A stretch of 53,720 nucleotides of DNA, taken from IMG/VR virus record IMGVR_UViG_3300025809_000027, positions 1-53,720 of that record. One strand, written 5' to 3'. Below are positions 1-50,813 of this stretch, in pieces; the stretch's first letter is position 1, and each line of letters begins with the position of its first letter. The notes beneath the pieces are model-generated. The model saw only the letters and a program-made list of their open reading frames with translations, did not search any database and had not been told where the DNA came from. The stretch is from a virus. Its lineage: Duplodnaviria; Caudoviricetes. Both the position numbers and the translations under genes were made by a program.

Positions 1-48
1 AACAAAATAATATTTACATTAATTTACTAATAATCTCGTTTTATTTTG

Positions 49-56
49 TATATTTG
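49..56 (+). promoter_or_regulatory. Bacteroidetes -7 promoter element (TATATTTG) upstream of the HTH gene
   Basis: Matches TAnnTTTG 18 nt before ATG 75; also present in the second copy. Confidence 0.55.
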
Positions 57-74
57 CTTAAAATAAAGATATAA

Positions 75-344
75 ATGAGCTTATTAAGGTTAAATGAGAT
101 ATTAGATAAAGATTATACAGGCAGGGCATTGGCTAAAGAATTAGGGGTTACACCTAATACTGTGAGTAATTGGGTTAAAGGTTATTCTACGCCAAGCGGT
201 GACGACTTACTGAGAATCGCCAAAGTCCTAGACGTGGATGTAAGAGAGCTGTTCCACTCCACGAAAACAAAGGAAGCAGATGAGATTTTGAAACAAGCAA
301 TAAATGACCTGCAAGTGGTTTACTCTAAGATTAAAAAATATTGA
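75..344 (+). CDS. XRE/Cro-CI family HTH transcriptional regulator
   Basis: ALAKELGVTPNTVSNWVKG...LLRIAKVLDV is a classic HTH_3 pattern. Confidence 0.9.
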   Translation: MSLLRLNEILDKDYTGRALAKELGVTPNTVSNWVKGYSTPSGDDLLRIAKVLDVDVRELFHSTKTKEADEILKQAINDLQVVYSKIKKY

Positions 345-367
345 ATAACGTGATTAAAGAAATAACC

Positions 368-488
368 TAACGGTTTGTATATGAAATGTGCGACATTGAA
401 ATAAGAACTAACTAAATAAAAATACATTAATTATGAAATTAAAAATAGAAATCACAAAAAAGGAAAAGCATTTTTTATATACTTTGTT
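368..488. repeat. attC-like hairpin site A
   Basis: TAAC-GGTTT-GTATATGAAATGTGC ... GCATTTTTTATATAC-TTT-GTT; the loop contains ATG 433. Confidence 0.75.
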
Positions 489-648
489 ATGCTTTGTTTT
501 TTTAATATTAAACATGGCTTGCGGTATAATGATAGGTGTGGAAATATTTAAAGACACCAATAGCTTCGGATATAACGCAACCTTAGTATATACAGCTTTA
601 AGTTGCTTTTTCTATTATTATGTAATGTTTCAGCGAAATAAAGCATAA
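433..648 (+). CDS. Small two-TM membrane protein (cassette cargo)
   Basis: Two hydrophobic stretches; its stop TAA is the TAA of the TAAC in site B. Confidence 0.7.
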   Translation: MKLKIEITKKEKHFLYTLLCFVFLILNMACGIMIGVEIFKDTNSFGYNATLVYTALSCFFYYYVMFQRNKA

Positions 649-770
649 CGTTTATGGTATGGTGACGTTGCGACCTTACAGCATGGACTTAATTAATAAA
701 CATAAAACTTTGAGATATGAATAAAGACAATAAGAAAACAGAAACCGAGCAATGCACTATACCAAGTGTT
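646..770. repeat. attC-like hairpin site B
   Basis: TAAC-GTTTA-TGGTATGGTGACGTTGC ... GCAATGCACTATACCA-AGT-GTT; the loop contains ATG 717. Confidence 0.8.
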
Positions 771-998
771 AGCAGTAGTATTTCTCTATGGATGGAAGGA
801 TTCTCTGCTACAGGACAAAGACAAGGTGCAAGTATGATAGGAACTTACCAAGCGAAAAACCTTGATGATGCGGTTAAACAGTATATGGAAACCCATAAGG
901 GCGATGTTGATTGGGATAGGTTTGGCAGAGGCAGACACGCTATTTGGGCTTGTGAAATATTTGATAATGAAAAAGAAGCCCGTAAATCGTTTGGCTAA
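717..998 (+). CDS. Hypothetical protein (cassette cargo)
   Basis: 93 aa ORF; residues EQCTIPSVSSS are encoded by the right arm of site B. Confidence 0.75.
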   Translation: MNKDNKKTETEQCTIPSVSSSISLWMEGFSATGQRQGASMIGTYQAKNLDDAVKQYMETHKGDVDWDRFGRGRHAIWACEIFDNEKEARKSFG

Positions 999-1007
999 TA
1001 TTACTGC

Positions 1008-1046
1008 TAACTACCGTATATGCGTACTAAAAAGTGTCTTAACGGG
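1008..1046. other. Array-terminal half site (putative attI-like landing site)
   Basis: TAACTACCGTATA occurs four times; 1006-1046 is identical to 11596-11636. Confidence 0.6.
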
Positions 1047-1082
1047 CATATATGTCGGGATAATACAACTTTTACAGTATAT

Positions 1083-2222
1083 TTAAAAATCAGGACTCTG
1101 ATCTATAATCATCTTCCGATTCACTTCTTTAACAACAGTCGCATAACGCTTTGTCATCAATTCAGATTGATGCCCGTACAAGTCCCTCAGAGCTTCCAAA
1201 TCAATACCTGCCAAAATTTTCGCATTAGCTCCTGTATGTTTCATGGCGTATAAATTCACATTAATTCCTAAGTCTTTTTTTACCAGAGCATTCCAATTAC
1301 GATTAGAAGTATCACGCTTTAACATTCCAGAAGCAGGCAAAAACTCAATTCTATTACGCCCACGCTTTCCAGTTGGAATGCGTCCAAACAAATAAAAGTC
1401 TTCTGGATATTGACTTAAATCCATAGATTCAAACTCCTTCAGTAAATGGTGATTGATTGGAACTACTCTTTGTTTTTTACGTCCCTTCGTAATGTGAGCA
1501 GGCATTACAATAGTTTGGTTTTGAAGATCAATCATTCCCACTCTTAGCCGTGTCAACTCAACTGGTCTTATTCCTGTATGGAAAAGCGTCACCACAAATC
1601 TGTAAAATCCTAAATGTTTTTTTTGAAGGTGTTTTTTGATTCTCGTTATTTCGTTTGGAGTTGCTGGACGGTTGGCGGTGCTTTCTTGTTCTGGTAGTCT
1701 TTTGATTTTAAAACAAGGGTTGTTTTCAAGTAAATCCCACTGCATAAGCTCCGTGAAGATTGCAGACAAATACCCCAGATTCTTGTTGTAAGCTTTGCTA
1801 GACCAGTTCCTATCTTTTTTCATGCGCTCCATTACGAGCTTCACATGAAGCCGTCTAACGTCTTTAATATAAAGATTTGAAAGTCTTATGTCTTTGATGG
1901 CTTGAATTACAAAGCCTAAAGCATTACTATAATCGTGGAATGTTTTCTTTGCAATAAACTCTTTCTTTTTTTCTAAAGCGAAATTCAGAGCATCGATTAA
2001 AGTGTAATTAACTTCGGTCATGGGATTGTCGCTCGACCATCCAGAGGCTATATTTTTTTTAAAAGATTTAAGAAGTACGTTAGCGGCTGCCTGACGTTTT
2101 TTAAGGTTCTTAATCCTATTAAGGTTCCCTGTAAAGCGTCTTTGCTTCCCGTTAATTGAGAAGTAAACATACCATCTCGAAGATGATTTGCATAATTTCG
2201 GTGTTGTGATGTTTTGACTCAT
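1083..2222 (-). CDS. int: Phage tyrosine integrase 1
   Basis: TGIRPVEL (R), YAMKHTG, LYGHQS...RYA (H, Y) motifs; adjacent to an att region. Confidence 0.92.
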   Translation of the reverse strand: MSQNITTPKLCKSSSRWYVYFSINGKQRRFTGNLNRIKNLKKRQAAANVLLKSFKKNIASGWSSDNPMTEVNYTLIDALNFALEKKKEFIAKKTFHDYSNALGFVIQAIKDIRLSNLYIKDVRRLHVKLVMERMKKDRNWSSKAYNKNLGYLSAIFTELMQWDLLENNPCFKIKRLPEQESTANRPATPNEITRIKKHLQKKHLGFYRFVVTLFHTGIRPVELTRLRVGMIDLQNQTIVMPAHITKGRKKQRVVPINHHLLKEFESMDLSQYPEDFYLFGRIPTGKRGRNRIEFLPASGMLKRDTSNRNWNALVKKDLGINVNLYAMKHTGANAKILAGIDLEALRDLYGHQSELMTKRYATVVKEVNRKMIIDQSPDF

Positions 2223-2262
2223 TTAAATTAAATTAAATGCCTACAAGCGTGTCAATCATCAT

Positions 2263-2469
2263 AACCGTACATATTATGTACAGTTTGGATATAAACCCCT
2301 GATAAACAGGGGTGTATAAACCAAAGCGGAGAGTAAGGGAGTGTCTTTTTTAGAAACTCAAAAACTCAACTGATTGAATTGCAATGTTTTACATTTTGCG
2401 TTAGTATTCGTTTTTTGCTATTTTTGGCGTAATTATGTACAGTTTTTATGTACAGTTTTTATGTACCAG
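2263..2469. other. attP-like region 1: core 2326-2340 flanked by TTATGTACAGTTT arm-type repeats
   Basis: Arm repeats at 2263-2273 (inverted), 2274-2286, 2433-2445, 2446-2458 and 2459-2469 lie on both sides of a tRNA-like core. Confidence 0.75.
2326..2340 (-). other. tRNA 3'-end fragment (tRNA-Ser-like), att core; not a full tRNA
   Basis: The reverse complement TCCCTTACTCTCCGC fits a T-stem 3' strand, acceptor 3' strand and G discriminator. Confidence 0.6.
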
Positions 2470-2471
2470 AT

Positions 2472-2597
2472 TTAAACCATTTTTTTAATTAATGGAATAC
2501 CTTCTTTTAATCCACCAATGGTTATATCCAAGTCTTCAATACGACATCTTAGCTTATCGATTGCTTCGATTAACTCGTTTAATTTTTCTTCATTCAT
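2472..2597 (-). CDS. 41 aa hypothetical protein (not in the ORF track)
   Basis: MNEEKLNELIEAIDKLRCRIEDLDITIGGLKEGIPLIKKMV; preceded by the shared AAAACCCTACTTATT leader. Confidence 0.55.
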   Translation of the reverse strand: MNEEKLNELIEAIDKLRCRIEDLDITIGGLKEGIPLIKKMV

Positions 2598-2657
2598 AAT
2601 AAGTAGGGTTTTAAGGGTTTTTAATTTAGGTTTATGTAGTTATTAAATTTTTTAAGA

Positions 2658-2825
2658 TTAATCTAGCTGACTAGCAATTGCAATCAAAGATCCAATAACA
2701 GAAAGCCAACAAACTATTTGCACCCACGTACTTGTAATAGATGCTGATTTTGATGCTGATTTTAGGTAGCGATAGATTCCTTCCTGTAATTCTCTATCGG
2801 AGAGTTCGGGTATTTTCTTTGTCAT
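2658..2825 (-). CDS. 55 aa protein with a C-terminal TM helix (not in the ORF track)
   Basis: MTKKIPELSDRELQEGIYRYLKSASKSASITSTWVQIVCWLSVIGSLIAIASQLD; has the shared leader. Confidence 0.6.
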   Translation of the reverse strand: MTKKIPELSDRELQEGIYRYLKSASKSASITSTWVQIVCWLSVIGSLIAIASQLD

Positions 2826-2877
2826 AATAGTAGGTTTTAGGTTTATGGTTTAGTTTAAATAGATCGGGGCAAGATTC

Positions 2878-2906
2878 TAAAGTGGTCAAATTCGACCACT
2901 TTAAAA
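2878..2906. repeat. Near-perfect palindrome TAAAGTGGTCAAATTCGACCACTTTAAAA, copy 1
   Basis: Identical 29-mer at 12740-12768. Confidence 0.8.
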
Positions 2907-2919
2907 TCTATGTATGATA

Positions 2920-3402
2920 TTAAAGACAGTAAGTTTTATAACTAACTATTCCAGAAGACGCAATATTAATTTTTCTTGCATAAGTTTTAAAGGTAAAACT
3001 ATAGATGTTTCCATCATAAAGATTTTCTATATAAGCAAATACGCTCCTGTCATAATCATAATTAGTTATCAATTTTACAAATTCATTTTTCTTCACAATA
3101 TCAATAATACCATTTTCTATGTAATGAAACCTCCAAGACTTATCTTTTTGGCTATTTTTCTCTCGGGTGATTAATTCACCTGTATTTCCTTCTTTTGTTT
3201 TTAGGATGTTATTCCCATTGACATCTCTAAAGTAAATACCTAATGTTTTGTTGTTTAAAACGATTGTTACAATTAAAGGGTGCTTGTCTTTATTTAAGTC
3301 TAAGTAATTGCCTTCAGTTTTGTAAATATGTTGTTTTGAGTTGGTTTTTTTTTCGTCTTGATCTGTTAGACTGGTTTCAGTCCATTCGTTTAAATTAATC
3401 AT
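2920..3402 (-). CDS. Hypothetical accessory protein in the immunity region
   Basis: 160 aa ORF co-oriented with the repressor and integrase. Confidence 0.7.
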   Translation of the reverse strand: MINLNEWTETSLTDQDEKKTNSKQHIYKTEGNYLDLNKDKHPLIVTIVLNNKTLGIYFRDVNGNNILKTKEGNTGELITREKNSQKDKSWRFHYIENGIIDIVKKNEFVKLITNYDYDRSVFAYIENLYDGNIYSFTFKTYARKINIASSGIVSYKTYCL

Positions 3403-3423
3403 AATAAGTAGGTTTTAAGGGTT

Positions 3424-3801
3424 TTAAATTATAGGGATTATTAAGTTTTTGTTTTTATCTAGTCTAAGTTCCATGATGCTGAGTCGTGCTTCTTGACCTT
3501 TAATAAGTTGTTCTAAAAGCTCAACTCTTTTTAATAGTAAACTATCAATAGGCGTTTCTTTTGGTTTAACAAGCATCGTTCCTTTGCCTGTTAGAATCCA
3601 TTCATAACTGATCTCGGGGTATCTGTTTGTTATTTTTCTAGCAAGTCCTGCTGAAATTCCATTGCGACCGTTTATGACGTTATCTATCATTGTGCCACTT
3701 GTGTGTCCTATTGACATACCAAAAGCCCTTCTACTCAATTTAGCATGAGATATAATGGCTAGCATTATTTCTGGGAAACTTTTTTCTTCTTGATTTTTCA
3801 T
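3424..3801 (-). CDS. CI-like phage repressor (HTH, no S24 peptidase domain)
   Basis: HTH followed by YPEISYEWILTGKG, typical of Bacteroidetes prophage repressors; divergent from the early operon. Confidence 0.8.
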   Translation of the reverse strand: MKNQEEKSFPEIMLAIISHAKLSRRAFGMSIGHTSGTMIDNVINGRNGISAGLARKITNRYPEISYEWILTGKGTMLVKPKETPIDSLLLKRVELLEQLIKGQEARLSIMELRLDKNKNLIIPII

Positions 3802-4595: not shown

Positions 4596-4850
4596 ATGAC
4601 CGACACCATAACCATACCGACAGAATTACTAAAAGATATAGTTGATGTAAACAATCGACTAGTCGAACATTACAACCGCCTACAAGCGTGTTCAAATCGA
4701 AGTCCCGAAGTTAAGGGGTCGGGAACTTCACTTAAGGGGGGTAAGGATAGACCAAGCCTCCCTTCTAAAAAAGTAATCCTTGAAAACAGAACTAAAAAAT
4801 ACGTAGAAAAAAAACTAAAAGAAATTCAATCTAAAAGAAATTCAATCTAA
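4596..4850 (+). CDS. Hypothetical protein
   Basis: ORF in operon; its 3' end lies within the tandem repeat. Confidence 0.6.
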   Translation: MTDTITIPTELLKDIVDVNNRLVEHYNRLQACSNRSPEVKGSGTSLKGGKDRPSLPSKKVILENRTKKYVEKKLKEIQSKRNSI

Positions 4851-4894
4851 AAGAAATTCAATCTAAAAGAAATTCAATCTAAAAGAAATTCAAT
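4815..4894 (+). repeat. Perfect tandem repeat, 5 x CTAAAAGAAATTCAAT (16 bp)
   Basis: Counted directly. Confidence 0.95.
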
Positions 4895-4920
4895 TATGAA
4901 CCCAAAAAAACCCAACAATT

Positions 4921-5346
4921 ATGAATCCAGAAATTAAACAAAAACTAGAAGAATTAACTGATTTAATATTGAAATCCACCAAAGGAGATCAAAACAATGT
5001 AGATGCTACAATCAAAGGAAATCAATACAATCAAGGTGTTACAATCGGAGGATGGCAAGACAATGTAGATGCTACAATCAAAGGAATTCAAGACAATGTA
5101 GGTGCTACAATCGAAGGAAGTCAAAACAATCAAGGTGTTACAATCGGAGGATGGCAAGACAATGTAGATGCTACAATCAAAGAAAGTCAAGACAATAGAA
5201 GCGCTACAATCAAAGGAAGTCAAAACAATCAAGGTGCTACAATCGAAGGAAAAATGATTATAGATTCCAAAACAAATTTTAAAAAAGGTATTTGGAAAGT
5301 TGAAAAAACAGGGTTGGTTGAATATGAATTAACTCCTAAAAAATAA
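4921..5346 (+). CDS. Protein with 8 x 11-aa repeats (probable beta-solenoid)
   Basis: GxQxNxxATI[KEG] repeated eight times. Confidence 0.75.
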   Translation: MNPEIKQKLEELTDLILKSTKGDQNNVDATIKGNQYNQGVTIGGWQDNVDATIKGIQDNVGATIEGSQNNQGVTIGGWQDNVDATIKESQDNRSATIKGSQNNQGATIEGKMIIDSKTNFKKGIWKVEKTGLVEYELTPKK

Positions 5347-5351
5347 ACATT

Positions 5352-5702
5352 ATGAACCCAACAACCCAACTTAAACCAATCACCGCAGAAGGTGAGAAAG
5401 AATTTCTAACTGAATTAAGCCTTTCAGATGTGTATGTAAGCACAGAAGACAGGCGAGCAACTGTAACAACATTATGGCGGTATGACATCGAGCGAAAGTC
5501 AAAGTACATAAATTTCAATGTTTACACCAAACAGGCTAGAATCACCCTTTACAATGACGAAGGCAAAGAGCTAGGTGTCTATGATACTCTTGTGAATGAC
5601 GAATGGACTGTTGAAGACAAGGGAATTAATTTAAACGACACAATAATCCCTCAATATGCAGAGGTGGACTTAGAAGATAAATCAATAATCATTAACTGGT
5701 AA
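5352..5702 (+). CDS. Hypothetical protein
   Basis: ORF in operon. Confidence 0.7.
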   Translation: MNPTTQLKPITAEGEKEFLTELSLSDVYVSTEDRRATVTTLWRYDIERKSKYINFNVYTKQARITLYNDEGKELGVYDTLVNDEWTVEDKGINLNDTIIPQYAEVDLEDKSIIINW

Positions 5703-5763
5703 CTTAACTAACCAACCCCACTAATTAAGAAAATCAACAAAAACTTAAATAAACCCAACAATT

Positions 5764-6282
5764 ATGAACCCAACAATTCATTATTTAAAAGCTCGTAACA
5801 GCGACTTCCTTGCTAGTACAGACTTAGAAGTCTTTGAGCTTGAAGGAAAATCAAAAATATTAACAGTTAAAAACGTTGAGTACAAGGAAAATTTCAAGGT
5901 CAACGGAAGGATCAAACCCAAAGGCGTGGTGATGTACTTTGAAGAGATTTATGCAAAACCTTTAATCGTGAACACAACCAATTCCACTTTAATAAAAGAA
6001 GCGACAGGTGTTATTGACGCTAAAAAATGGATAGGTTTTTCGGTAGAATTTAGATTTGATGATAAAGTAGAAATGAAAATCAGCAAAACCGAAACCAGAA
6101 AGGGCGGCATTAGAATTAAGAGTGTAAACACAAACGGACTTGCAGCCCCTTTAACAGACGTTAAAACACGAATAGATCAATGTACCAAGAAAGTTGAAGT
6201 CATGGCTATATGGCAAGAATTAACGGAGCAGGAACAAGCCCAGCATAAGCTTCAGATTTCTGAAAAACATAAAACACTTTAA
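5764..6282 (+). CDS. Phage protein, possibly ssDNA annealing/binding partner of the exonuclease
   Basis: KPLIVNTTN...KWIG motif; lies directly upstream of the exonuclease and SSB-like genes. Confidence 0.45.
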   Translation: MNPTIHYLKARNSDFLASTDLEVFELEGKSKILTVKNVEYKENFKVNGRIKPKGVVMYFEEIYAKPLIVNTTNSTLIKEATGVIDAKKWIGFSVEFRFDDKVEMKISKTETRKGGIRIKSVNTNGLAAPLTDVKTRIDQCTKKVEVMAIWQELTEQEQAQHKLQISEKHKTL

Positions 6283-6284
6283 TT

Positions 6285-7196
6285 ATGGATTTTTCAAACT
6301 ACCTGTTTCGAGCCCACATGGTTGGCAAGATTATAACCGTGCCCAAGCCACTAACCGAAAACCAAACAAAGACCTTAGAGTCTTTTAAATTAAAGGGATA
6401 CCCAAATATAACGGACAAACAAAAAGAAACCTTTGTAAGCCTTGAAAACAAGCTGATTGAAAGTAAGAAATTCAAACTTACAGATGCGAACAAAAAGACA
6501 TTATCGGGATTAGTTTACGCTACAAAATACGGTAGAAGGACTGAAATAAATTCTGATAAAATAACCAAAGGTTTGACCGTTGAAAAGGACTGTCGAGACA
6601 TTCTGTCGAGAGTTTCAAATTTGTTCTTGACTCACTCGACTGAAAGGAAAACAAATGAATGGGTGAGTGGTGCAATTGACATGGAGCCAAGCGAAGTAAT
6701 TGTAGATATAAAGTCCTCGTGGAGTTGGGAATCATACTCTAAAATACTTGAAGATAGCGCAAATGAAATCTATCTAAGACAACTAGATTCATACATGGAT
6801 TTATGGGCTAAAAAAGATTCTTTGCTTTGCCATATACTAACAGACACGCCTTTTAAATTGGTAGAAAAAGAAATAAAAAGCCTTGACTACAAGTACAACA
6901 TTCTAAACATGGAAGGTGATGTAAGAGACGAAAACATTGAAGATGTTGTAAAGGTCGTTACAAATCATATTTTTTCAAGAAAAGGTTTGGAGGAATTCTG
7001 TCAGCACTCAACCAACGTGCATATTGAATGGTTCAAGGACTTTATCGAAATCCCAGAACAGGACAGGGTTCACATGATACCACACGCTTACGACCAAGAA
7101 AGGATTGAGCAAAGAAACAAAAGCATAATCCTTTCACGAGAGTACATGAACACAGTAAAATCAATCAATAATTTTAATCCTAAATTAATCAAATAA
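6285..7196 (+). CDS. YqaJ/lambda-exo-like PD-(D/E)XK exonuclease
   Basis: KGLTVE...SGAID...IVDIKSSW...YLRQLDSYM motifs. Confidence 0.75.
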   Translation: MDFSNYLFRAHMVGKIITVPKPLTENQTKTLESFKLKGYPNITDKQKETFVSLENKLIESKKFKLTDANKKTLSGLVYATKYGRRTEINSDKITKGLTVEKDCRDILSRVSNLFLTHSTERKTNEWVSGAIDMEPSEVIVDIKSSWSWESYSKILEDSANEIYLRQLDSYMDLWAKKDSLLCHILTDTPFKLVEKEIKSLDYKYNILNMEGDVRDENIEDVVKVVTNHIFSRKGLEEFCQHSTNVHIEWFKDFIEIPEQDRVHMIPHAYDQERIEQRNKSIILSREYMNTVKSINNFNPKLIK

Positions 7197-7198
7197 CA

Positions 7199-7564
7199 AT
7201 GAAAATACAAGGCAAAGTAAAAGTAATCGGACAAGTACAAGAAATCGGATCAAAAGGATTCAAGAAACGTGAGTTAGTTATAACCGTTCCAGACGAGAAA
7301 TACCCTCAACACATTCTGGTGGAGTTTATTCAAGACAAAACAAGTCTTCTAAACGATATAATCGTTGGTCAAAACATAACCGTACACATCAACATCAACG
7401 GTCGAGAATGGATCAACCCACAAGGCGAAGCGAAGTATTTTAATGCGATTCAAGGATGGAAAATAGAAATAGACCCAAAGTCTGAGATTCCTGAAGCACC
7501 ATTTGAAGCTGCAACAGATTTGACAGTAGGCGAGCCAAACGATTTACCATTTTATAACCTATGA
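7199..7564 (+). CDS. DUF3127 family OB-fold protein (SSB-like)
   Basis: GFKKRELVI...YPQHILVEFIQDK...NINGREW...YFNAIQGWKI with an acidic DLPF tail. Confidence 0.85.
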   Translation: MKIQGKVKVIGQVQEIGSKGFKKRELVITVPDEKYPQHILVEFIQDKTSLLNDIIVGQNITVHININGREWINPQGEAKYFNAIQGWKIEIDPKSEIPEAPFEAATDLTVGEPNDLPFYNL

Positions 7565-8043
7565 AGACACTTCATTTAACTTTAAAAAAACAATGGTTCG
7601 ACATGACTAAATCAGGTATAAAAACCGAAGATTATAGAGATGTTAATAAGTATTGGTTTAAGAGACTTATTTTTAAATGGCGTGATGTGATGCTTTTTCA
7701 CGGATATAACGATCTAACTGACGAAATCGCTATATATATTATTGAAAACTCCAAGATGTATGGGTTTAAGCCTTTTAAAAGTAACATAATGACTTTGGGC
7801 TATGCAAAAAAAGGAGACAAAGAAAGGACTTTAGAATTAGAGCATAAGGGCATTGAAGTAGGGACAGGCAACCCTGAATGGGGCGCAGAGCCAAACAAGA
7901 TGTACTTTGTTATCAAGCACGGGAAAATAATAAACACGGACTTGCAAGAAGCAATTAAAAAAGCCAAACCAAATTTGGATAAAATAAAAGATGTTGACAA
8001 GCATCTTGATGAAATTAGAAACAGTAGAATAAAAACAATTTAA
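7561..8043 (+). CDS. ASCH domain protein
   Basis: TLHLTLKKQWFDMTKSGIKTEDYR is the ASCH GxKxxExR signature. Confidence 0.8.
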   Translation: MKTLHLTLKKQWFDMTKSGIKTEDYRDVNKYWFKRLIFKWRDVMLFHGYNDLTDEIAIYIIENSKMYGFKPFKSNIMTLGYAKKGDKERTLELEHKGIEVGTGNPEWGAEPNKMYFVIKHGKIINTDLQEAIKKAKPNLDKIKDVDKHLDEIRNSRIKTI

Positions 8044-8054
8044 AACCTAATCCT

Positions 8055-8378
8055 ATGCAAGCAGAAATCGACTTTACACACCAAAGAGACTTATCAAGAG
8101 GTAGGCATAATGAGAACTCAATAATTGCTCATGAACGATTAAAGCCGTTTAAAGAAACTATGAGAAAACAAGTAGAACAATGTGTAGATGGGCATAGATG
8201 TACACTGGAGATTGCTGAGATGTTAGATAAACATCTCCATAAAATAAGCGGTCGATTCACTGCTTTAAAAGCGTCAGGAGTTATCGAGCAAACGGGACGT
8301 AAAAAATATAAAGGAAGTACATATACAATATATAGTAAAGCAAACACCAGTAGATACTTGCTGTTGGGGCAGGAGTGA
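8055..8378 (+). CDS. Winged-helix DNA-binding protein
   Basis: TLEIAEML...ISGRFTALKASGVIEQTGRK. Confidence 0.65.
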   Translation: MQAEIDFTHQRDLSRGRHNENSIIAHERLKPFKETMRKQVEQCVDGHRCTLEIAEMLDKHLHKISGRFTALKASGVIEQTGRKKYKGSTYTIYSKANTSRYLLLGQE

Positions 8379-8445
8379 AAAATAGGTAAAGTTGGTTTTT
8401 TGGTCTCAAGGTACAGGTTATAGCCTCCCTGTACCGTGCCAAAAA

Positions 8446-8635
8446 TAACGTTACTTGTGTATGATTAGTAGCGAATTATTAAAACTAAAACTTATAAAAA
8501 TGAAAGAAATAAACACACAAATTATCCAAACAGGATTTACACTTGATAGATTGCACCAAGATGGCAAAATAGACAATGAAGCCTACACAATTTTAAAAAA
8601 TAGGAATAAACAAGCTATTAATTATACACGTTGTT
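8446..8635. repeat. attC-like hairpin site C (long loop)
   Basis: TAAC-GTTACTT-GTGTATGATTAGTAGC ... GCTATTAATTATACAC-GTT-GTT; the loop contains ATG 8500. Confidence 0.8.
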
Positions 8636-8799
8636 CTGAGCTTTTGATTTGCCTTGACAATGGTAATTATGAAATGCTAACAAACTATAAATTATACAAG
8701 TTAGTTTCTGAAAGTAAAGGTTATTATAATCTATATGATGATGATGGAAAATTAGTTCAAATGAGCAAAGTTCGCTTCAAAAAAGTAGTGGCAAATTAA
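8500..8799 (+). CDS. Hypothetical protein (cassette cargo); ATG 8500 preferred over GTG 8455
   Basis: A-rich leader before ATG 8500; QAINYTRCS is encoded by the hairpin arm. Confidence 0.7.
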   Translation: MKEINTQIIQTGFTLDRLHQDGKIDNEAYTILKNRNKQAINYTRCSELLICLDNGNYEMLTNYKLYKLVSESKGYYNLYDDDGKLVQMSKVRFKKVVAN

Positions 8800-8807
8800 T
8801 TACTTAG

Positions 8808-8851
8808 AACACCCGTATAAAAGCCGTTTCAATGGCGGTTTATACTAAGTT
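8808..8851. repeat. Short attC-like hairpin site D
   Basis: AAC-ACCC-GTATAAAAGCCGTT-TC-AATGGCGGTTTATAC-TAA-GTT with an extra G in the 3' arm; its reverse complement resembles site H. Confidence 0.8.
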
Positions 8852-8963
8852 ATTTTTTTAATAGAACAAAACATGAAAAAACTAAAAGTATTAATAATAT
8901 TCCTGTTTGGCGAAAGAGTCAAAAGCAAAAGAAAATTTTGGAATCCAGAAATAAAAGGAACTA

Positions 8964-9185
8964 GTGGATGATGTCTTAATAGTCCCTGAGCTTATTAAAT
9001 CATCAAAAGGCAATAGGTACTATATTTTTCGACCCAATGGACAAGAAGTAGCGATAGAGATTAAAAATAATATTCTAGACCCTCAATTCCCTCTCACTCA
9101 AATTGAAAGAGAATTTATTTACAGAAATATACAACCGTTTAAAACGAACAACCCTGAATTATTAAAGATTAAAATAAATGGCTAA
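8964..9185 (+). CDS. Hypothetical protein
   Basis: ORF overlapping the start of the replication gene. Confidence 0.55.
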   Translation: MDDVLIVPELIKSSKGNRYYIFRPNGQEVAIEIKNNILDPQFPLTQIEREFIYRNIQPFKTNNPELLKIKING

Positions 9186-9930
9186 CCGATTAACAAGTAC
9201 CGACAAATATGCAGATTCGTGGTTTATTGAATTAGAAACGATAGAGAAGCTTGTGTTTTATTACTTAATTGACCACGTAGATAATGCAGGCTTTTATGAA
9301 ATATCGATAAGACACATACAATTTCACTTAGGAATTAGTAAGGATGAAATTTTAAGGGCTATAAAGGGGCTGTGTAGGGGTTTATTAGGGGCTGATTCTG
9401 AAATTAAAAACGGAGATAAAATATTTTTAAAGAATTTCTTAAAACACCAGAAGATGCAACCTTTAAACCCTTTTAACTCTTTTCATTCCAATGCTTTAAA
9501 GTCTTTTGAGTTGAATATTGATTTTGTAAATAAACACCCTTTTATTCAAAAATTAAAGGTTTACGGTGAAAAAAAATTAGATGGAAAAGTTGTAAAAACA
9601 ATAGATACAAATTTAATTAATTACATAAATAAAAAACAGGGGCTAGAAAGCCCCTTAGTAGAAGTAGAAGTAAAAGTAGAAGTAGAAGTAAAGGATATTC
9701 CAAATAAAAAAGAGTTTTTAGAATTTGCAAAATTGAAAATTGAAAATATCGACTTGGAAGATGTGGGATTGAAATACGAAGCATGGAAATCTAGTGATTG
9801 GCATACAGGCGGTGAAAAACCTCGAAAGATTAAGAATTGGAAAACAACGCTGTTAAATACTCTGCCGCATTTAAAAAAAACAACCGTAAAAAAAACAGGA
9901 AAACTTAACGCATATAACCCGAACAAATGA
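9178..9930 (+). CDS. Phage replication initiator
   Basis: N-terminal wHTH-like region (DSWFIEL...YLIDHVDNAG), low-complexity linker, C-terminal KIKNWK motif; internal iterons; followed by a loader ATPase. Confidence 0.75.
   Translation: MANRLTSTDKYADSWFIELETIEKLVFYYLIDHVDNAGFYEISIRHIQFHLGISKDEILRAIKGLCRGLLGADSEIKNGDKIFLKNFLKHQKMQPLNPFNSFHSNALKSFELNIDFVNKHPFIQKLKVYGEKKLDGKVVKTIDTNLINYINKKQGLESPLVEVEVKVEVEVKDIPNKKEFLEFAKLKIENIDLEDVGLKYEAWKSSDWHTGGEKPRKIKNWKTTLLNTLPHLKKTTVKKTGKLNAYNPNK
9354..9655. promoter_or_regulatory. Putative replication origin iterons
   Basis: Four AGGGGCT-like repeats at an 11-bp period (9354-9393) and an inverted pair AGGGGCT-AGAA-AGCCCCT (9638-9655). Confidence 0.65.
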
Positions 9931-10682
9931 TTTCAACTAGAAAATACAGACTGATGAAGCGGTTCAGAGGAACGCTGACAACTGAGCAAGAAAGCCAAAT
10001 ATCTGAGTATGAAAATTCTACCCTGTCCGTAAAATTCAGCGAACCAGAACCAGAGGAAATACCCCTCACGAGACTGCCATTCGACTGGTTACAAAGAATG
10101 TTTATGAAGTGTTGGAAAATCAACGAAGGAAAAGATTTAATCTTCACAGAATCTACGAAACCAATCTACAGGGCTTTGACTCAGTATTTCGCAAGGAGTG
10201 AAAATTTTACAAACACGAATATTACCACAAATATACCCGAGCTTAAAAAAGGGCTTTTAATTATTGGCGATTATGGATGCGGCAAAACATCAATGCTAAG
10301 AGCTTTTCAAATGGTGGGTAAGGCACTGCTGCCAGATCCTATACTTTGGTTTAATAGCGTGTCCTGTAATGCCTTAGTAATGGAGTTTGAGGGCATGGAC
10401 ACAAAAGATAAATCAGCAAAGAAACATTTCTTTCAAAAATACAACAAAGCTGCTGTAATGTATTTTGATGATTTCGGCACAGAATCCAATGCTTCAAATT
10501 TTGGAATTAAAAACTTAATGAAAGACATTCTGGAAGAAAGGTATGCGAATAATAAGCGAACATTTTTGACAAGTAATTTATCACTACCAGAAATTCAAGA
10601 AAAGTACGGAGACAGAGTGTATGACCGACTTCAAGAAATGTTTAACATAATTCAAATGTCTGGGGATAGCTTCAGACGTTAG
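9927..10682 (+). CDS. DnaC/IstB-like AAA+ helicase loader
   Basis: Walker A GDYGCGKT, Walker B YFDDFGTE, TSNL, YGDRVYDRL. Confidence 0.85.
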   Translation: MISTRKYRLMKRFRGTLTTEQESQISEYENSTLSVKFSEPEPEEIPLTRLPFDWLQRMFMKCWKINEGKDLIFTESTKPIYRALTQYFARSENFTNTNITTNIPELKKGLLIIGDYGCGKTSMLRAFQMVGKALLPDPILWFNSVSCNALVMEFEGMDTKDKSAKKHFFQKYNKAAVMYFDDFGTESNASNFGIKNLMKDILEERYANNKRTFLTSNLSLPEIQEKYGDRVYDRLQEMFNIIQMSGDSFRR

Positions 10683-10704
10683 ACAAAGCAAAACAAGAAC
10701 TAAA

Positions 10705-11028
10705 ATGAGCCTAGAAAAAATAACACCAAAAAACACGGAGTACGCAAAGCAGACTTTAAGAAATAGAGGTGATATGTTTAGCGTCTATATTTTAAAGCTA
10801 ATAGAAAGCTTTGAAAACTCGAAAGACAACCCGATCAAAGACAATCGAATAGTGAGCGACCGAACGTTTGCATATCGTTTAAAGTCTCATCTGAAAGATG
10901 TTAGAGCGGAATGTCAGATGGGACAGGAGGAACTCGAATATCTTACAGGGGTTGCAGACAGGCTCTTAGAATATCAAAAACAAACAATGCCAGACGATGA
11001 GAAATGGTTTTTTAAGAATCTTCAGTAA
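10705..11028 (+). CDS. Hypothetical protein
   Basis: ORF whose stop codon is the TAA of site E. Confidence 0.7.
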   Translation: MSLEKITPKNTEYAKQTLRNRGDMFSVYILKLIESFENSKDNPIKDNRIVSDRTFAYRLKSHLKDVRAECQMGQEELEYLTGVADRLLEYQKQTMPDDEKWFFKNLQ

Positions 11029-11116
11029 CGGGTTTGGCTATGATTATGTAGCCTTGAAACACAGAACTTTGAATTAAATATAAACTTTAATAAGGGTATT
11101 AATTATAGCCCTTGTT
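11026..11116. repeat. attC-like hairpin site E
   Basis: TAAC-GGGTTT-GGCTATGATTATGTAGCC ... GGGTATTAATTATAGCC-CTT-GTT. Confidence 0.8.
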
Positions 11117-11132
11117 AGCAACTTTTAAAATT

Positions 11133-11276
11133 ATGGATTATACAATAACTTATACTTATAAAGACAAAGAAGACACTATACTATTACAAGATACGCAAAA
11201 CATACTCGGAGCAATAGGGCAATTTTACGAAGACCATGTTAGAGAATGTAGAATAATAAAGATTGAAGAATACTAG
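11133..11276 (+). CDS. 47 aa cassette cargo protein (not in the ORF track)
   Basis: MDYTITYTYKDKEDTILLQDTQNILGAIGQFYEDHVRECRIIKIEEY fills the space between sites E and F. Confidence 0.65.
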   Translation: MDYTITYTYKDKEDTILLQDTQNILGAIGQFYEDHVRECRIIKIEEY

Positions 11277-11295
11277 TAATTTTTATTGTGGGTAA

Positions 11296-11480
11296 AACGG
11301 TTTGTGTATGGGTAGGTTTTTGACTTTGAATAATGAACTAAATTGATAGATATGGTACAAGAAATAGAAATGACAAAAGAAGAGCAAATGACAATGTATA
11401 TGAAATGCTCGAAAAAAGAACTGTGTGAAATGCTGATTGAAGCAAATAGGCACTTAAAAAACTTACCTATACACGTTGTT
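11296..11480. repeat. attC-like hairpin site F (long loop)
   Basis: AAC-GGTTT-GTGTATGGGTAGGTTTTT ... AAAAACTTACCTATACAC-GTT-GTT; the loop contains ATG 11352. Confidence 0.8.
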
Positions 11481-11600
11481 ACCCAACAAAGTGAACTGGT
11501 TTGTGATTGTTTGCCAATGAGTACGCAAGTAAGCACTATAAATGGTAGATACATTTGCTGTACTTGTAATAAACCACTCTTATCACAAACTTGTGGCTAA
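11352..11600 (+). CDS. Small Cys-rich (Zn-binding?) cassette cargo protein
   Basis: CDC...CCTC; the stop TAA overlaps the terminal half site. Confidence 0.65.
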   Translation: MVQEIEMTKEEQMTMYMKCSKKELCEMLIEANRHLKNLPIHVVTQQSELVCDCLPMSTQVSTINGRYICCTCNKPLLSQTCG

Positions 11601-11636
11601 CTACCGTATATGCGTACTAAAAAGTGTCTTAACGGG
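11598..11636. other. Array-terminal half site, second copy
   Basis: Identical to 1008-1046. Confidence 0.6.
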
Positions 11637-11752
11637 ATTGTATAAGGAACGTTGCGTTTAGGAAACCAAAAATTAACGATTAGAAATAAAGAAAATTAAT
11701 ATTAACAGACCTTTGGTATAGCACAAATTAGCAATGTTTTTTATACGGTGTT
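11630..11752. repeat. attC-like hairpin site G
   Basis: TAAC-GGGATT-GTATAAGGAACGTTGC ... GCAATGTTTTTTATAC-GGT-GTT. Confidence 0.8.
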
Positions 11753-11803
11753 ACCCACTTTTTAAAAAGCCGTGCGTGAGGTACGAGGGCAAATACACAA
11801 ACT

Positions 11804-12730
11804 ATGGAATTTAAAAAATACCAACATTTAGAGAGATTTGGAACTACAGAAGTTCAAAATATTGTATTAGGGAGAACACATATATTCCCAAAAATTGACG
11901 GAACAAATGCAAGTGTTTGGATTAATGACAAAGGAGAAATACAAGCAGGAAGCAGAAAAAGACATTTAACTTTAGACGCTGATAATGCAGGTTTTTACGC
12001 TTGGGTTAAAGAACAAAATAATTTATTAAAATACTTAACAGAAAATCCAACACATAGACTTTATGGCGAATGGCTTGTACCACATTCTCTTAAAACCTAT
12101 AAAAAAGATGCGTGGCGAAACTTCTACATTTTTGATGTAGCTATTGACAAAGAAGAGTCTGAAATAACACACGAAGGCGATGATAAAATTAAATATTTAC
12201 CTTATGATGAATACAAACCACGACTTGAAGAAAAAGGTTTGAATTTCATTGCACCAATTAGTATAATTACAAATGCAAGTTATGAGCAATTAGTAAATCA
12301 ATTAATGAAAAACGTTTTTTTAATTGAAGATGGTAAAGGAGTTGGAGAAGGTATTGTGATTAAAAACTATGACTTTAAAAATAAATACGGAAGAAATACA
12401 TTTGCTAAAATTGTAACCTCTGAATTTAAAGAAAAACACTCTAAAGTTATGGGTGCCTCTGAAATTAAAGGTAAAAAGATGGTTGAAGAAGAGATTGCGA
12501 AAGAGTTTGTTACAACCGCTTTAGTTGATAAGGTTTACGCTAAAATTGAAAATGAAAGTGGTTTTAATAGTAGAGCAATACCAAGATTATTAAATACTGT
12601 TTTTTATGATGTAGTAAAAGAAGACGCTTGGAACTTTGTTAAGAAGCACAAAAACCCAAGTATAAATTTTAAAACATTACAACACTTTGTTTTTGTAGAA
12701 GTAAAAGAGAAAGCACCGCAATTATTTTAA
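11804..12730 (+). CDS. ATP-dependent RNA ligase (Rnl2-like nucleotidyltransferase)
   Basis: Motif I PKIDGTN, III YGEW, IIIa FDV, IV EGIVIK, V AKIVTSEFKE. Confidence 0.85.
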   Translation: MEFKKYQHLERFGTTEVQNIVLGRTHIFPKIDGTNASVWINDKGEIQAGSRKRHLTLDADNAGFYAWVKEQNNLLKYLTENPTHRLYGEWLVPHSLKTYKKDAWRNFYIFDVAIDKEESEITHEGDDKIKYLPYDEYKPRLEEKGLNFIAPISIITNASYEQLVNQLMKNVFLIEDGKGVGEGIVIKNYDFKNKYGRNTFAKIVTSEFKEKHSKVMGASEIKGKKMVEEEIAKEFVTTALVDKVYAKIENESGFNSRAIPRLLNTVFYDVVKEDAWNFVKKHKNPSINFKTLQHFVFVEVKEKAPQLF

Positions 12731-12739
12731 AGCAATATT

Positions 12740-12768
12740 TAAAGTGGTCAAATTCGACCACTTTAAAA
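12740..12768. repeat. Near-perfect palindrome, copy 2
   Basis: Identical to 2878-2906. Confidence 0.8.
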
Positions 12769-12791
12769 AACTAAAAAAACTAAAAAAAACA

Positions 12792-13112
12792 ATGAACATA
12801 ACAGATAAAATAGAAAAAATAATAGAAGAACTAGAAAAAGAAAAAGGAACAAAACAGGATATTACCTGGCATCAAATAGCTATAAGATTAGCTCAAAATA
12901 CAACAAAATCGTTAACCGCTGATGAATTGATAAAATCGTTAGGTACGCCAGAACTTGAGAATGAATACATACTAAAACCAGATAAGGACGGAACTTGGTG
13001 GATAGAACACAAACACGTTGGAAGTGGCGAACCATTAAAACAATGGTTAACAAATAGAGGAATATGGGAAACTTATCCAGAAGATCCCGCTCCGCAAAGT
13101 CTCCCGACTTAG
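12792..13112 (+). CDS. Hypothetical protein (ATG 12792 preferred over GTG 12744)
   Basis: A-rich leader before ATG; ends just before the half site at 13118. Confidence 0.6.
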   Translation: MNITDKIEKIIEELEKEKGTKQDITWHQIAIRLAQNTTKSLTADELIKSLGTPELENEYILKPDKDGTWWIEHKHVGSGEPLKQWLTNRGIWETYPEDPAPQSLPT

Positions 13113-13117
13113 CGAAG

Positions 13118-13130
13118 TAACTACCGTATA
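13118..13130. other. Array-terminal half site TAACTACCGTATA, third copy
   Basis: Exact 13-mer. Confidence 0.55.
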
Positions 13131-13225
13131 AAAGAGTAAAAATCTTTAAATAATATTCAAAAAAACATCTTATTTATTGGTAATTCCATAAAAGCATTAA
13201 AATACTAAAGTTTTTTCAAATAAAA

Positions 13226-19608: not shown

Positions 19609-19641
19609 CGTGCTTTTCCCGTGCTACTTACGTGCTACTTA
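19609..19641 (+). promoter_or_regulatory. 11-bp-period CGTGCT repeats (putative late activator site 1)
   Basis: CGTGCTTTTCC CGTGCTACTTA CGTGCTACTTA; also at 28242 and 40614. Confidence 0.7.
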
Positions 19642-19707
19642 AAAATGAATACTTACAAAAGGCTATATTTTTGGGTCAATTAAGTATAATTTTTAAAAAA
19701 AGATAAG

Positions 19708-28190: not shown

Positions 28191-28241
28191 AAGTAGGGTT
28201 TTAGGGCGTAAATATATAAAAAATACTTTAAACACTCCCAA

Positions 28242-28274
28242 CGTGCTTTTCCCGTGCTTTTCCCGTGCTACTTA
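28242..28274 (+). promoter_or_regulatory. 11-bp-period CGTGCT repeats (putative late activator site 2)
   Basis: CGTGCTTTTCC x2 plus CGTGCTACTTA. Confidence 0.7.
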
Positions 28275-28310
28275 AAAACATAAAAAAAGGATTCCCCTTA
28301 AATTTCAGCC

Positions 28311-40613: not shown

Positions 40614-40657
40614 TGTGCTACTACCGTGCTTTTCCCGTGCTTTTCCCGTGCTACTTA
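40614..40657 (+). promoter_or_regulatory. 11-bp-period CGTGCT repeats (putative late activator site 3)
   Basis: TGTGCTACTAC, CGTGCTTTTCC x2, CGTGCTACTTA. Confidence 0.7.
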
Positions 40658-40711
40658 AAAAGTCATTTTAGAAATTCCATATATTTTTGAATGAAATAAA
40701 ATCTAAAAAAG

Positions 40712-41167: not shown

Positions 41168-41179
41168 AATAATAATACT

Positions 41180-43210: not shown

Positions 43211-43229
43211 AAATATAAAAACAATAAAT

Positions 43230-49724: not shown

Positions 49725-49734
49725 AACAACTAAA

Positions 49735-50728: not shown

Positions 50729-50738
50729 CACTTGTTGC

Positions 50739-50751
50739 TAACTACCGTATA
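50739..50751. other. Array-terminal half site TAACTACCGTATA, fourth copy
   Basis: Exact 13-mer at the position homologous to 1008. Confidence 0.6.
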
Positions 50752-50813
50752 TGTCAACAAAAGCCCGTATTAACGGGACTATGTGTCGGGATAACACAAC
50801 TTTTACAGCACAT

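What the first reader, a model, noticed from the sequence alone, without database searches (positions are those of the whole stretch)
1006..1060. Recurrent array-terminal half site TAACTACCGTATA, a candidate attI-like landing pad
Seen: the exact 13-mer closes cassette runs at 1008, 11598, 13118 and 50739. It looks like a left arm (AAC-spacer-GTATA) with no proper GTT partner. 41 bp are identical between 1006-1046 and 11596-11636. At 11631 the second AAC of that block opens site G, whereas at 1041 it continues GGGCATATATG with no cassette. Inference: read on minus (TATACGGTAG|TT) it sits where attI would, and the block may hold two tandem entry points.
Basis: partly seen in the sequence, partly recalled or inferred. 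Interest (0 to 1): 0.8.

Follow-up and report, generated by a model that had tools for sequence, protein, structure and literature searches.

The report
Conserved gene-end boundary motif in phages
The repeated 13-letter word is the start of a short conserved spacer that follows accessory genes in a group of marine Flavobacteriaceae phages and marks where gene modules get swapped; it is not an integron-type landing pad.

Summary
TAACTACCGTATA occurs exactly 4 times, all on the + strand; 0 of 100 shuffles gave any match. Sites 1008 and 50739 are the same locus in two related phage copies. The word is not a free-standing half site. It is the left end of a conserved 68-72 nt intergenic block. With a degenerate 7-nt prefix it forms a roughly 20-nt gene-end motif.

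Related marine contigs and a Flavobacteriaceae prophage carry the same block after many unrelated genes and before several different right neighbours. Five further phage records, which share few or no genes with this one, carry the exact 13-mer after gene ends.

The attI reading fails where I could test it. Both integrases are ordinary tyrosine integrases. In genomic homologues the tRNA-Ser or tmRNA target lies on the other side of the gene. The site is multi-copy and can lie inside a variable region. One relative has equally variable slots without it.

The weaker idea, that it marks a recombination junction, holds. One natural variant lacks a 361-nt cassette exactly beside a degenerate copy.

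Best reading (about 0.5): a transcription-unit boundary or linker that serves as a short homology patch for module shuffling, like the PeSLs of T4-type phages. Site-specific cassette recombination at TAA|C is not excluded (about 0.15).

The parts
1001..1075 (+). Full boundary block, type A, of phage copy A. It consists of a degenerate prefix (T at -7), the 13-mer 1008-1020, and about 55 further conserved nt ending CTTTTA. It lies between the stop of ORF 717-998 and the stop of the convergent integrase gene (1083).
50732..50806 (+). Homologous block, type B, of phage copy B, with the 13-mer at 50739-50751. Its inner hairpin CCCGT-ATTA-ACGGG shows a compensatory T..A version in L092 and G177. 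A fossil of about 100 nt of the first integrase's 3' end follows.
11591..11636 (+). Truncated block with the 13-mer at 11598-11610, whose TAA is the stop codon of ORF 11343-11600. It is identical to 1006-1046 over 41 nt. It breaks off after the internal TAACGGG and continues as a different repeated intergenic element, related by eye to 369-393 and 646-675.
11742..11760 (+). Inverted partner of the 11598 copy (TATACGGTGTTA plus CCCAC), followed by a T run. Together they form a long terminator-like dyad upstream of the RNA ligase gene. An X2 contig diverges after 11752, and its loose letters begin with another GTT-type end.
13118..13130 (+). 13-mer-only copy, 5 nt after the stop of ORF 12744-13112. 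It is a block cut after position 13 and fused to the last codons (13131-13139) of a small hydrophobic ORF. That ORF is intact downstream of a full block in G177 and is also intact in L087.
8441..8858 (+). Related dyad split by a cassette. The outer arm is 8441-8449; the ORF114 cassette occupies about 8450-8807; the degenerate copy GAACACCCGTATA is at 8807-8819; the inner hairpin and 3' arm reach 8858, followed by a T run. One X4 contig joins 8446 to 8808.
345..1007 (+). Hypervariable accessory slot of copy A, between the HTH gene (75-344) and the block. Its content is unrelated to the slot of copy B (49727-50738), of L089, of L094 and of G001.
1083..2222 (-). Tyrosine integrase of copy A (379 aa). 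It is not an integron integrase.
2290..2345 (-). Probable attP core region of that integrase. It resembles, by eye, a tRNA-Ser 3' end plus the hairpin behind it, and is flanked by repeats at 2273, 2432 and 2445.
11804..13112 (+). RNA ligase gene (11804-12730) and ORF 12744-13112, the module bracketed by the 11598 and 13118 copies. A 29-nt hairpin at 12740-12768 is identical to 2878-2906.

Best explanation
The 13-mer is the stop-codon-proximal core of a conserved gene-end element of about 20 nt: T at -7, then TG-Y-N-GC, then TAACTACCGTATA. In this phage lineage the element is extended into a 68-72 nt intergenic block.

I infer that the block is a boundary between transcription units. It directly follows accessory genes on their coding strand. 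Some versions are the 5' arm of a terminator-like dyad followed by a T run.

Because many otherwise different phages of marine Flavobacteriaceae share it, it offers a short patch of identity. General recombination can exchange, delete or import the flanking gene modules at that patch. The phage's own exonuclease-type recombination genes, or host functions, could do this. This is how the PeSL cassettes of T4-type phages are said to work.

The three loci in this phage are then read as follows:
- 1008 is a full block.
- 11598 is a block that recombined at its internal TAACGG with another intergenic repeat.
- 13118 is a block reduced to 13 nt by a deletion.

Shown here: the element, its copies, the diversity of both flanks, the junction positions, one natural presence/absence variant, and the absence of an integron-type enzyme in the window.

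Inferred, not shown: the terminator or regulatory function, and that homologous or microhomology recombination, rather than a dedicated enzyme, makes the junctions.
For: The block is real and has varied neighbours.
- A metagenome scan with a 20-specified-base pattern found 8 loci. Two repeat this early region and one repeats copy B. Five give new contexts: L087, L089, L092, L093 and L094.
- A Flavobacteriaceae chromosome (G177) carries three direct copies within 4.1 kb of a prophage early region, with ORFs between them.
- Right neighbours differ: the integrase 3' end, three other continuations after CTTTTA, and the two truncations.

The motif follows gene ends.
- Across 20 distinct copies the 13-mer is preceded by T at -7 (19 of 20), G at -2 (15 of 20) and C at -1 (13 of 20). 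Further left the flanks are unrelated.
- Its TAA is the stop codon of the upstream ORF in 7 of 16 copies. In the other 9 the stop lies 5-13 nt upstream.
- No two upstream ORFs match at E 0.01 or better.

Other phages carry it.
- G004 has 4 exact copies on one strand. G005, G006, G007 and G008 have one each. The reversed control pattern gave 0.
- None of the five has an integrase of this family.

Homology-driven exchange is suggested.
- The intragenomic 41-nt identity is 100%. Copies in relatives are 92-96% identical over the same stretch.
- By eye, block A of the window is type A on its left and resembles type B around GTCGGG.
- The RNA-ligase region also holds a 29-nt hairpin identical to one in the lysogeny region, in the same order and orientation as the 41-mer.
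- The phage encodes an exonuclease-family protein.

Some copies look like terminators.
- Dyads followed by T runs occur at 8441-8858 and 11593-11775.
- Dyads (not checked for a T run) also occur in G006 and L013.

A precedent exists. [quoted passage not shown]
Against: - A passive linker does not need 13 of 13 identity across phages that share almost no genes. That degree of conservation suggests specific recognition by a protein or an RNA that I could not identify.
- Several junctions fall at TAAC itself, including one where the same left piece carries two different right pieces. The cassette indel has AAC at both ends. That pattern also fits a site-specific enzyme.
- No promoter or terminator activity is shown. 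The block has no conserved fold: 4 predicted pairs and none covarying, on either strand. Single-sequence folds are no better than shuffles, with z from -1.3 to +1.3.
- Only 4 of the 25 copy entries scanned have a 3' partner. These are three dyads, because the window dyad is counted from both arms.
- The sigma-70-type scan does not cover Bacteroidota promoters.
- The invariance of the 13-mer within the metagenome set follows from how it was found, since the search pattern contained it.
Confidence: 0.5

Rival explanations
1. The motif is a true site-specific recombination site. A recombinase, host-encoded or unrecognised, would cut at TAA|C in the 5' arm of TAAC...GTTA dyads and insert or excise gene cassettes. 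The 13-mer copies would then be recombination products that share a common core.
For: - Junctions lie at or within 3 nt of TAAC at 372, 1008, 11026, 11598, 13121 and 50739.
- The same left piece carries two different right pieces at TAAC.
- The cassette 8447-8807 is absent from one X4 contig, and AAC is shared at both junctions. The empty form is a 57-nt dyad with TAAC...GTTA outer arms and GTATAAA/TTTATAC inner arms.
- Dyads with a short unpaired spacer between an outer and an inner box occur at 11593-11760, in G006 and in L013.
- 11598 and 13118 are direct repeats around a two-gene module.
- The 13-mer is exactly conserved across unrelated phages.
Against: - The window has no integron integrase, no Y1 HUH transposase and no serine recombinase. 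It has only two ordinary integrases.
- Five motif-bearing phage records lack this integrase family.
- Most copies have no 3' arm, and the block has no conserved fold.
- The left boundary is not razor-sharp. Conservation runs on to -7, and in some pairs to -15.
- The 13118 copy is explained by a deletion relative to G177.
- A simple count of ungapped TAAC/GTTA inverted repeats showed no excess over other tetramers.
- The circular junction of the 8447-8807 cassette would not form a dyad (by eye).
Confidence: 0.15
2. The motif is purely a cis-acting expression signal, kept by selection after genes. It could be a terminator arm, an RNA processing or stability site, or the binding site of a regulator shared by these phages or their hosts. 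It would play no part in recombination. The junctions would lie there only because gene ends are where mosaic boundaries survive.
For: - It is strictly on the coding strand and at gene ends in every phage examined.
- Sequence is conserved without flank conservation.
- Some copies are dyads followed by T runs.
- Relative G001 has equally variable slots without the motif.
Against: - Truncated copies of 13 and 39 nt are kept at module borders.
- The 100% identical 41-mer and 29-mer patches bracket the RNA ligase region.
- The same left piece is joined to different right pieces at TAAC.
- No candidate binding protein is shared by all motif-bearing phages. Only a DNA methylase is shared, by 4 of the 6 motif-bearing records including the window's own.
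- No Rfam family matches.
Confidence: 0.2
3. The block is a small non-autonomous mobile element (MITE-like) that inserts behind stop codons and is moved by a transposase encoded elsewhere.
For: - It has sharp right (CTTTTA) and left ends.
- It is multi-copy and spread across unrelated phages.
- An imperfect terminal inverted repeat of about 18 nt lies at 11593-11760.
Against: - The full block has no terminal inverted repeat.
- No target-site duplication is seen around block copies.
- No transposase is found in the window.
- The motif is not a repeat of host genomes. 30 of 401 Flavobacteriaceae genomes have a match. Of the 20 places fetched, 18 lie inside open frames of 100 codons or more, and only one is the block, in a prophage.
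Confidence: 0.08

Closest known systems
PeSL regulatory cassettes (promoter-early stem-loops) of T4-type phages (PMC2839356: abstract and section 13 read; PMC4122927: abstract read)
   Same: Both are short conserved intergenic motifs that begin at the stop codon of the upstream gene. Both are concentrated among non-essential, highly variable genes and repeated in direct orientation. Both coincide with insertion, deletion and replacement junctions between related phages, and both are shared between diverged phages.
   Different: - No promoter is identified here, and the stem-loop is present in only some copies.
- The hosts are Flavobacteriaceae and the phage is temperate.
- The conserved core is a specific 13-20 nt word rather than a host promoter consensus.
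- Mini-circles were not looked for.
Integron attI and attC sites (PMC8618304: passages found by term search)
   Same: Accessory ORFs are packed in arrays and bounded by repeated sites. The boundary word contains AAC and often overlaps the stop codon. A few copies are imperfect dyads with an outer and an inner box. The site lies next to a tyrosine recombinase gene.
   Different: - There is no integron integrase.
- The site is 3' of the integrase and converges with it.
- It is multi-copy.
- Most copies lack the second arm and there is no conserved fold.
- ORFs abut the site with their 3' ends.
- The motif also occurs in phages without an integrase of this family.
Conserved boundary or linker sequences at module junctions of lambdoid phages, and the 'moron' concept (recalled from general knowledge; no paper read here)
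   Same: Short conserved sequences at gene boundaries where mosaic joints lie, and accessory genes with their own expression signals inserted between genes.
   Different: Here one exact word recurs in phages that share almost no genes, which is more specific than the boundary sequences I recall.
Phage attP core next to the integrase
   Same: It is a short repeated word adjacent to the integrase gene.
   Different: In genomic homologues of this integrase the tRNA-Ser or tmRNA target lies on the 5' side of the gene. The pattern with its first block letters was not found in 185,579 species genomes. Flavobacteriaceae genomes have the 13-mer only as chance matches in genes or in one prophage.

Membership tests
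Integron attI site | Adjacent integron-type integrase (IntI) | tested here: not met
   TIGR02249 scores 48.0 and 46.2 bits against a cut-off of 265, matching profile positions 12-174 and 9-185 of 315. NF011946 scores 22.4 against 435.
Integron attI site | Lies between the integrase gene's 5' side and the first cassette, as the single acceptor of the array | tested here: not met
   The site is 63 nt beyond the integrase stop codon and convergent with it. There are three loci per genome. G177 has three direct copies.
Integron attI site | Acts as a double-stranded acceptor for attC cassettes | not testable with these tools
   This needs a recombination assay.
Integron attC site | Imperfect dyad with paired outer and inner boxes, whose folded single strand is conserved | tested here: inconclusive
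   A dyad is present at 11593-11760, at 8441-8858 (in its empty form), in G006 and in L013. It is absent at 1008, 13118 and 50739 and in all three G177 copies. The consensus fold of 8 block copies gives 4 pairs with none covarying. No attC covariance model was on hand.
attP core of the neighbouring integrase | Identity with the host target, and position as in integrated homologues | tested here: not met
   Of 12 genomic homologue loci scanned (of 14 found), 6 have tRNA-Ser and 3 have tmRNA upstream of the integrase. In 8 of these the RNA gene ends 128-149 nt before the integrase match. The window has a tRNA-Ser-end-like stretch at about 2290-2345; this was judged by eye, and the longest exact match is 9 nt. 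The block pattern gave 0 hits in genome contigs.
PeSL-like boundary cassette | Intergenic repeat starting at the upstream stop codon, in the variable regions | tested here: met
   The slots beside it differ in 5 of 5 versions.
PeSL-like boundary cassette | Indel and replacement junctions between related phages coincide with the repeat | tested here: met
PeSL-like boundary cassette | Contains a working promoter and a terminator stem-loop | tested here: inconclusive
   A hairpin occurs in type B blocks and in some dyads. No promoter was recognised, and the scan used is for sigma-70 sites, not Bacteroidota promoters.
IS200/IS605-type or MITE-type element | Cognate transposase, terminal or subterminal repeats, and target duplication | tested here: not met
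   PF01797 is absent from the window. The full block has no terminal inverted repeat. No duplication is seen around the copies.

The most novel reading that the evidence does not exclude
Marine Flavobacteriaceae phages may share a cassette-exchange system without an integron integrase. A specific word of about 20 nt at gene ends, sometimes the 5' arm of a TAAC...GTTA dyad, would be cut at TAA|C by an as yet unrecognised host or phage enzyme. Small accessory genes, including counter-defence candidates such as the RNA ligase, would then move as units between unrelated phages.
Probability: 0.13. Interest if true: 0.85.

Novelty: new variant of a known kind. Interest (0 to 1): 0.5.

Why it matters
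Accessory genes of temperate marine phages turn over very fast, and how they do so is mostly unknown outside T4-type and lambdoid phages. This work defines a searchable word of 13-20 nt that marks the borders of such genes in several otherwise unrelated Flavobacteriaceae phages and one genomic prophage. It gives a handle for mapping module exchange in metagenomes and for finding accessory-gene slots.

It also allows a test of whether exchange in this group runs on general recombination at shared regulatory spacers or on a dedicated enzyme. The exact conservation of the word across phages remains unexplained and is the part most worth following.

Tried and rejected
- attP core: my first reading was that the 13-mer is the attP core (stated).
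- Phage collection: a GenBank phage search with 900-2300 found no match.
- Integrase and HTH relatives in IMG/VR: none close. One search found none. One search found only 35-48% relatives, which I did not use.
- RNA ligase as carrier of the motif: in 47 IMG/VR loci the nucleotide similarity stays within 11791-12734. None has the 13-mer beside the ligase gene. There were 9 hits at up to 2 mismatches, none at a ligase flank, and one of them lies inside the L027 ligase ORF.
- Host repeat: rejected. I did not sum the reversed-control columns.
- RNA family: Rfam gave no match at gathering scores.
- Conserved structure: none found.
- General excess of TAAC/GTTA inverted repeats: not seen with ungapped arms. 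Inverted repeats with 13 of 14 matches occur at about the number I estimated by hand for chance. The pairs 486/636 and 768/998 may therefore be chance.
- A shared protein that could read the motif: only a DNA methylase is shared, by 4 of the 6 motif-bearing records including the window's own. This is not convincing.
I screened 116 hits, and 8 passed a crude gene-end filter. For the 15-letter form with GC, I judged 7 of 22 hits to follow a gene end. Most bare matches in the collection are therefore chance matches inside genes.
- Literature: a full-text search for the word and its reverse complement found 0 papers. A search on attC, bacteriophage, accessory genes, hairpin and mosaic listed nothing on such sites in phages, judging by titles and abstract starts only.
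- Reads: all four runs laid were short contigs that break at the 41-nt repeat. They could not show circles or a deletion between 11598 and 13118. The absence of such a joint among the 15 rows shown (12 more were not shown) says nothing.
- Not settled: whether the window is a tandem double lysogen or an assembly that ran from one strain into another.
- Supplementary files of the PeSL papers were not opened.

Full report
**What the window is.** The window is a whole IMG/VR virus record of 53,720 bases. It holds more than one genome length of a temperate phage.
- 1-300 matches 49384-49683 at 95%. 1005-1184 matches 50736-50915 at 87%. 3485-3663 matches 53542-53720 at 92%.
- Copy A has a 379-aa tyrosine integrase at 1083-2222 on the minus strand. 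Copy B has a different, 401-aa integrase at 50917-52122.
- A metagenome contig (L090) follows copy B at 99.5% identity and runs on into an early region like that of copy A.
- Integrase relatives are from Flavobacterium and other Flavobacteriaceae. The runs that hold the DNA are marine metagenomes.
- I could not tell whether the record is a tandem double lysogen or an assembly that ran from one strain into another.

**The observation.** TAACTACCGTATA occurs exactly at 1008, 11598, 13118 and 50739, always on the + strand.
- No match arose in 100 shuffles. With up to 2 mismatches there are still only these four.
- 1006-1046 and 11596-11636 are identical over 41 nt. This is the longest of the 213 exact repeats of 13 nt or more in one unit.
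- Because 1008 and 50739 are the same place in the two copies, the phage has three loci, not four.

**It is not the integrase's own site and not attI.**
- Both integrases score far below the integron-integrase models: 48.0 and 46.2 bits against a cut-off of 265, matching only the first half of the profile.
- The window has no Y1 transposase and no serine recombinase.
- I found 14 genomic loci with homologues of the 379-aa integrase and scanned 12 of them for tRNA genes. Six have tRNA-Ser(TGA), three have tmRNA and three have neither, always upstream on the same strand. In eight the RNA gene ends 128-149 nt before the integrase match.
- The window has, upstream of its integrase at about 2290-2345, a stretch that by eye resembles a tRNA-Ser 3' end and the hairpin behind it. 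The longest exact match is only 9 nt. Repeats flank it at 2273, 2432 and 2445.
It made me drop my own first idea that the 13-mer is the attP core.
- The 13-mer lies on the other side, 63 nt beyond the integrase stop codon.

**What the 13-mer belongs to.** A scan of metagenome contigs with the 13-mer plus a few following letters gave 8 loci.
- Two repeat the window's early region (97.1% over 2883 nt) and one is copy B.
- Five are new contexts: L087, L089, L092, L093 and L094.
- Aligned, they show a block of about 68 nt, from TAAC to CTTTTA, in two sequence types.
- L089 and L094 have the HTH gene, a slot with other content, the block, and then the integrase.
- L087, L093 and L092 have the block followed by other DNA.
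- A scan of 401 Flavobacteriaceae genomes found the 13-mer in 30. Of the 20 places fetched, 18 lie inside long open frames and are chance matches. One (G177) is a prophage with three direct copies of the block within 4.1 kb of its early region, with small ORFs between them. The first of these copies starts with CAAC.
- That prophage shares only tail-fibre genes and two small early genes with the window.
- The invariance of the 13-mer in the metagenome set follows from the search pattern. The G177 copies and the cross-phage copies below do not depend on that longer pattern.

**The motif beyond this lineage.** An IMG/VR scan for the 15-letter form found 21 loci.
- Many are chance matches in genes. 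In L011/L022, L017, L018, L019 (two hits in that scan, a third found later) and L021 the word follows a gene end on the coding strand.
- Their whole records have 4, 1, 1, 1 and 1 exact copies. The four of G004 are all on one strand. The reversed control gave 0.
- These phages share one to three proteins with the window, and none has an integrase of this family.
- Over 20 distinct copies the 13-mer is preceded by T at -7 (19 of 20), G at -2 (15 of 20) and C at -1 (13 of 20), while the rest of the left flank is unrelated. The conserved unit is therefore about 20 nt, and its left edge is not as sharp as TAA|C.
- The TAA is the stop codon of the upstream ORF in 7 of 16 copies. In the other 9 the stop is 5-13 nt upstream. 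The upstream ORFs are unrelated.

**The three loci of this phage.**
- 1008 is a full block.
- 11598 keeps the first 39 nt, up to an internal TAACGGG. It then continues as a different intergenic repeat that by eye resembles 369-393, 646-675 and a stretch in G177.
- 11598 also has an inverted partner at 11742-11760, followed by a T run.
- 13118 is only the 13-mer. Directly behind it come the last codons of a small hydrophobic ORF. That ORF is intact downstream of a full block in G177, and is also intact in L087. So 13118 looks like a block shortened by a deletion.
- In relative G001 the whole stretch 10708-13135 is replaced by 349 nt, and the motif is absent from that record.

**Junctions.**
- The slot between the HTH gene and the integrase side is different in all five versions I have. 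None of the 10 pairs shows similarity. In G001 the slot ends at another element, so the variability does not need the motif.
- Homology breakpoints between the window and its relatives fall at or within 3 nt of a TAAC at 372, 1008, 11026, 11598, 13121 and 50739.
- The piece 13086-13121 is joined at TAAC to the 13-mer in the window but to a different element in G177.
- In the laid contigs, one X4 contig joins 8446 to 8808. It skips 361 nt that hold ORF 8455-8799, with AAC shared at both sides.
- What remains is a 57-nt dyad followed by a T run, whose 5' arm is a close variant of the 13-mer. This confirms a prediction of another first-reader note.
- An X2 contig diverges after 11752, inside the inverted partner.

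**How I read it.** The element sits where PeSLs sit in T4-type phages. PeSLs start at the upstream stop codon, lie among variable non-essential genes, and lie at indel and replacement junctions (PMC2839356, section 13 and abstract; PMC4122927, abstract).
- The 100% identical 41-nt and 29-nt patches lie in the same order in the lysogeny region and around the RNA ligase gene.
- The block shows a chimeric pattern by eye.
- The phage has an exonuclease-family gene.
- These points fit exchange by general recombination at short shared spacers. I give this reading about 0.5.

**What does not fit well.**
- The exact conservation of the word in phages that share almost nothing else.
- The recurrence of TAAC at junctions.
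- The dyads with an outer and an inner box.
- These keep a site-specific mechanism alive (about 0.15), although no enzyme is in sight and most copies lack a second arm.
- A purely regulatory role (about 0.2) and a MITE-like element (about 0.08) are the other options.
- No function of the block was shown. There is no Rfam match and no conserved fold.

**Limits.**
- The read data were short contigs.
- Several similarities are judged by eye and are marked as such above.
- The scan's notebook held no similar DNA from other windows.

Noticed in passing
window 1-3663 and 49384-53720: The record covers about 1.09 genome lengths. Its two ends are 87-95% alike, not identical, and carry different integrases and different accessory genes. 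It is either a tandem double lysogen or an assembly that passed from one strain to another. Contig L090 continues copy B.
   Followed up: partly
window 8447-8807: A natural presence/absence variant. One contig of run X4 joins 8446 to 8808 and so lacks ORF 8455-8799. The empty form is a compact dyad with a T run.
   Followed up: partly
window 2878-2906 and 12740-12768: A perfect 29-nt palindromic hairpin is repeated in the lysogeny region and just after the RNA ligase gene, in the same order and orientation as the 41-nt repeat.
   Followed up: partly
window 369-393, 646-675, 11630-11656; G177 near 1992170: A second family of intergenic elements starts with TAACG and shares a GTATA...GTGCG or ...GTTGCG core (judged by eye). 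One of them forms the right half of the chimeric 11598 site.
   Followed up: partly
window 11804-12730: The RNA ligase family gene has 47 relatives in IMG/VR at 35-91% identity. Nucleotide similarity stops at the ORF ends. Contigs of X2 and X3 join 5356 to 11679 through 28 other letters, so in other phages the gene sits elsewhere.
   Followed up: partly
G177 chromosome, about 1,973,000-1,995,400: A prophage in a Flavobacteriaceae genome has three direct block copies and tail-fibre genes 75-80% identical in protein to window 40712-44660. A tRNA-Arg gene lies at 1,960,063-1,960,137.
   Followed up: partly
window 19602-19645, 28235-28278, 40607-40661: Arrays of CGTGCT-containing 11-nt repeats lie ahead of the late operons.
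   Followed up: no
window 4812-4908 and 4949-5278: Tandem repeats of 16 nt (intergenic) and of 33 nt (inside ORF 4921-5346). Laid contigs show length variants there.
   Followed up: no
window 16367-17542: An N6/N4 DNA methylase gene has relatives in G004, G005 and G008. In G004 the motif's TAA is the methylase's stop codon.
   Followed up: partly
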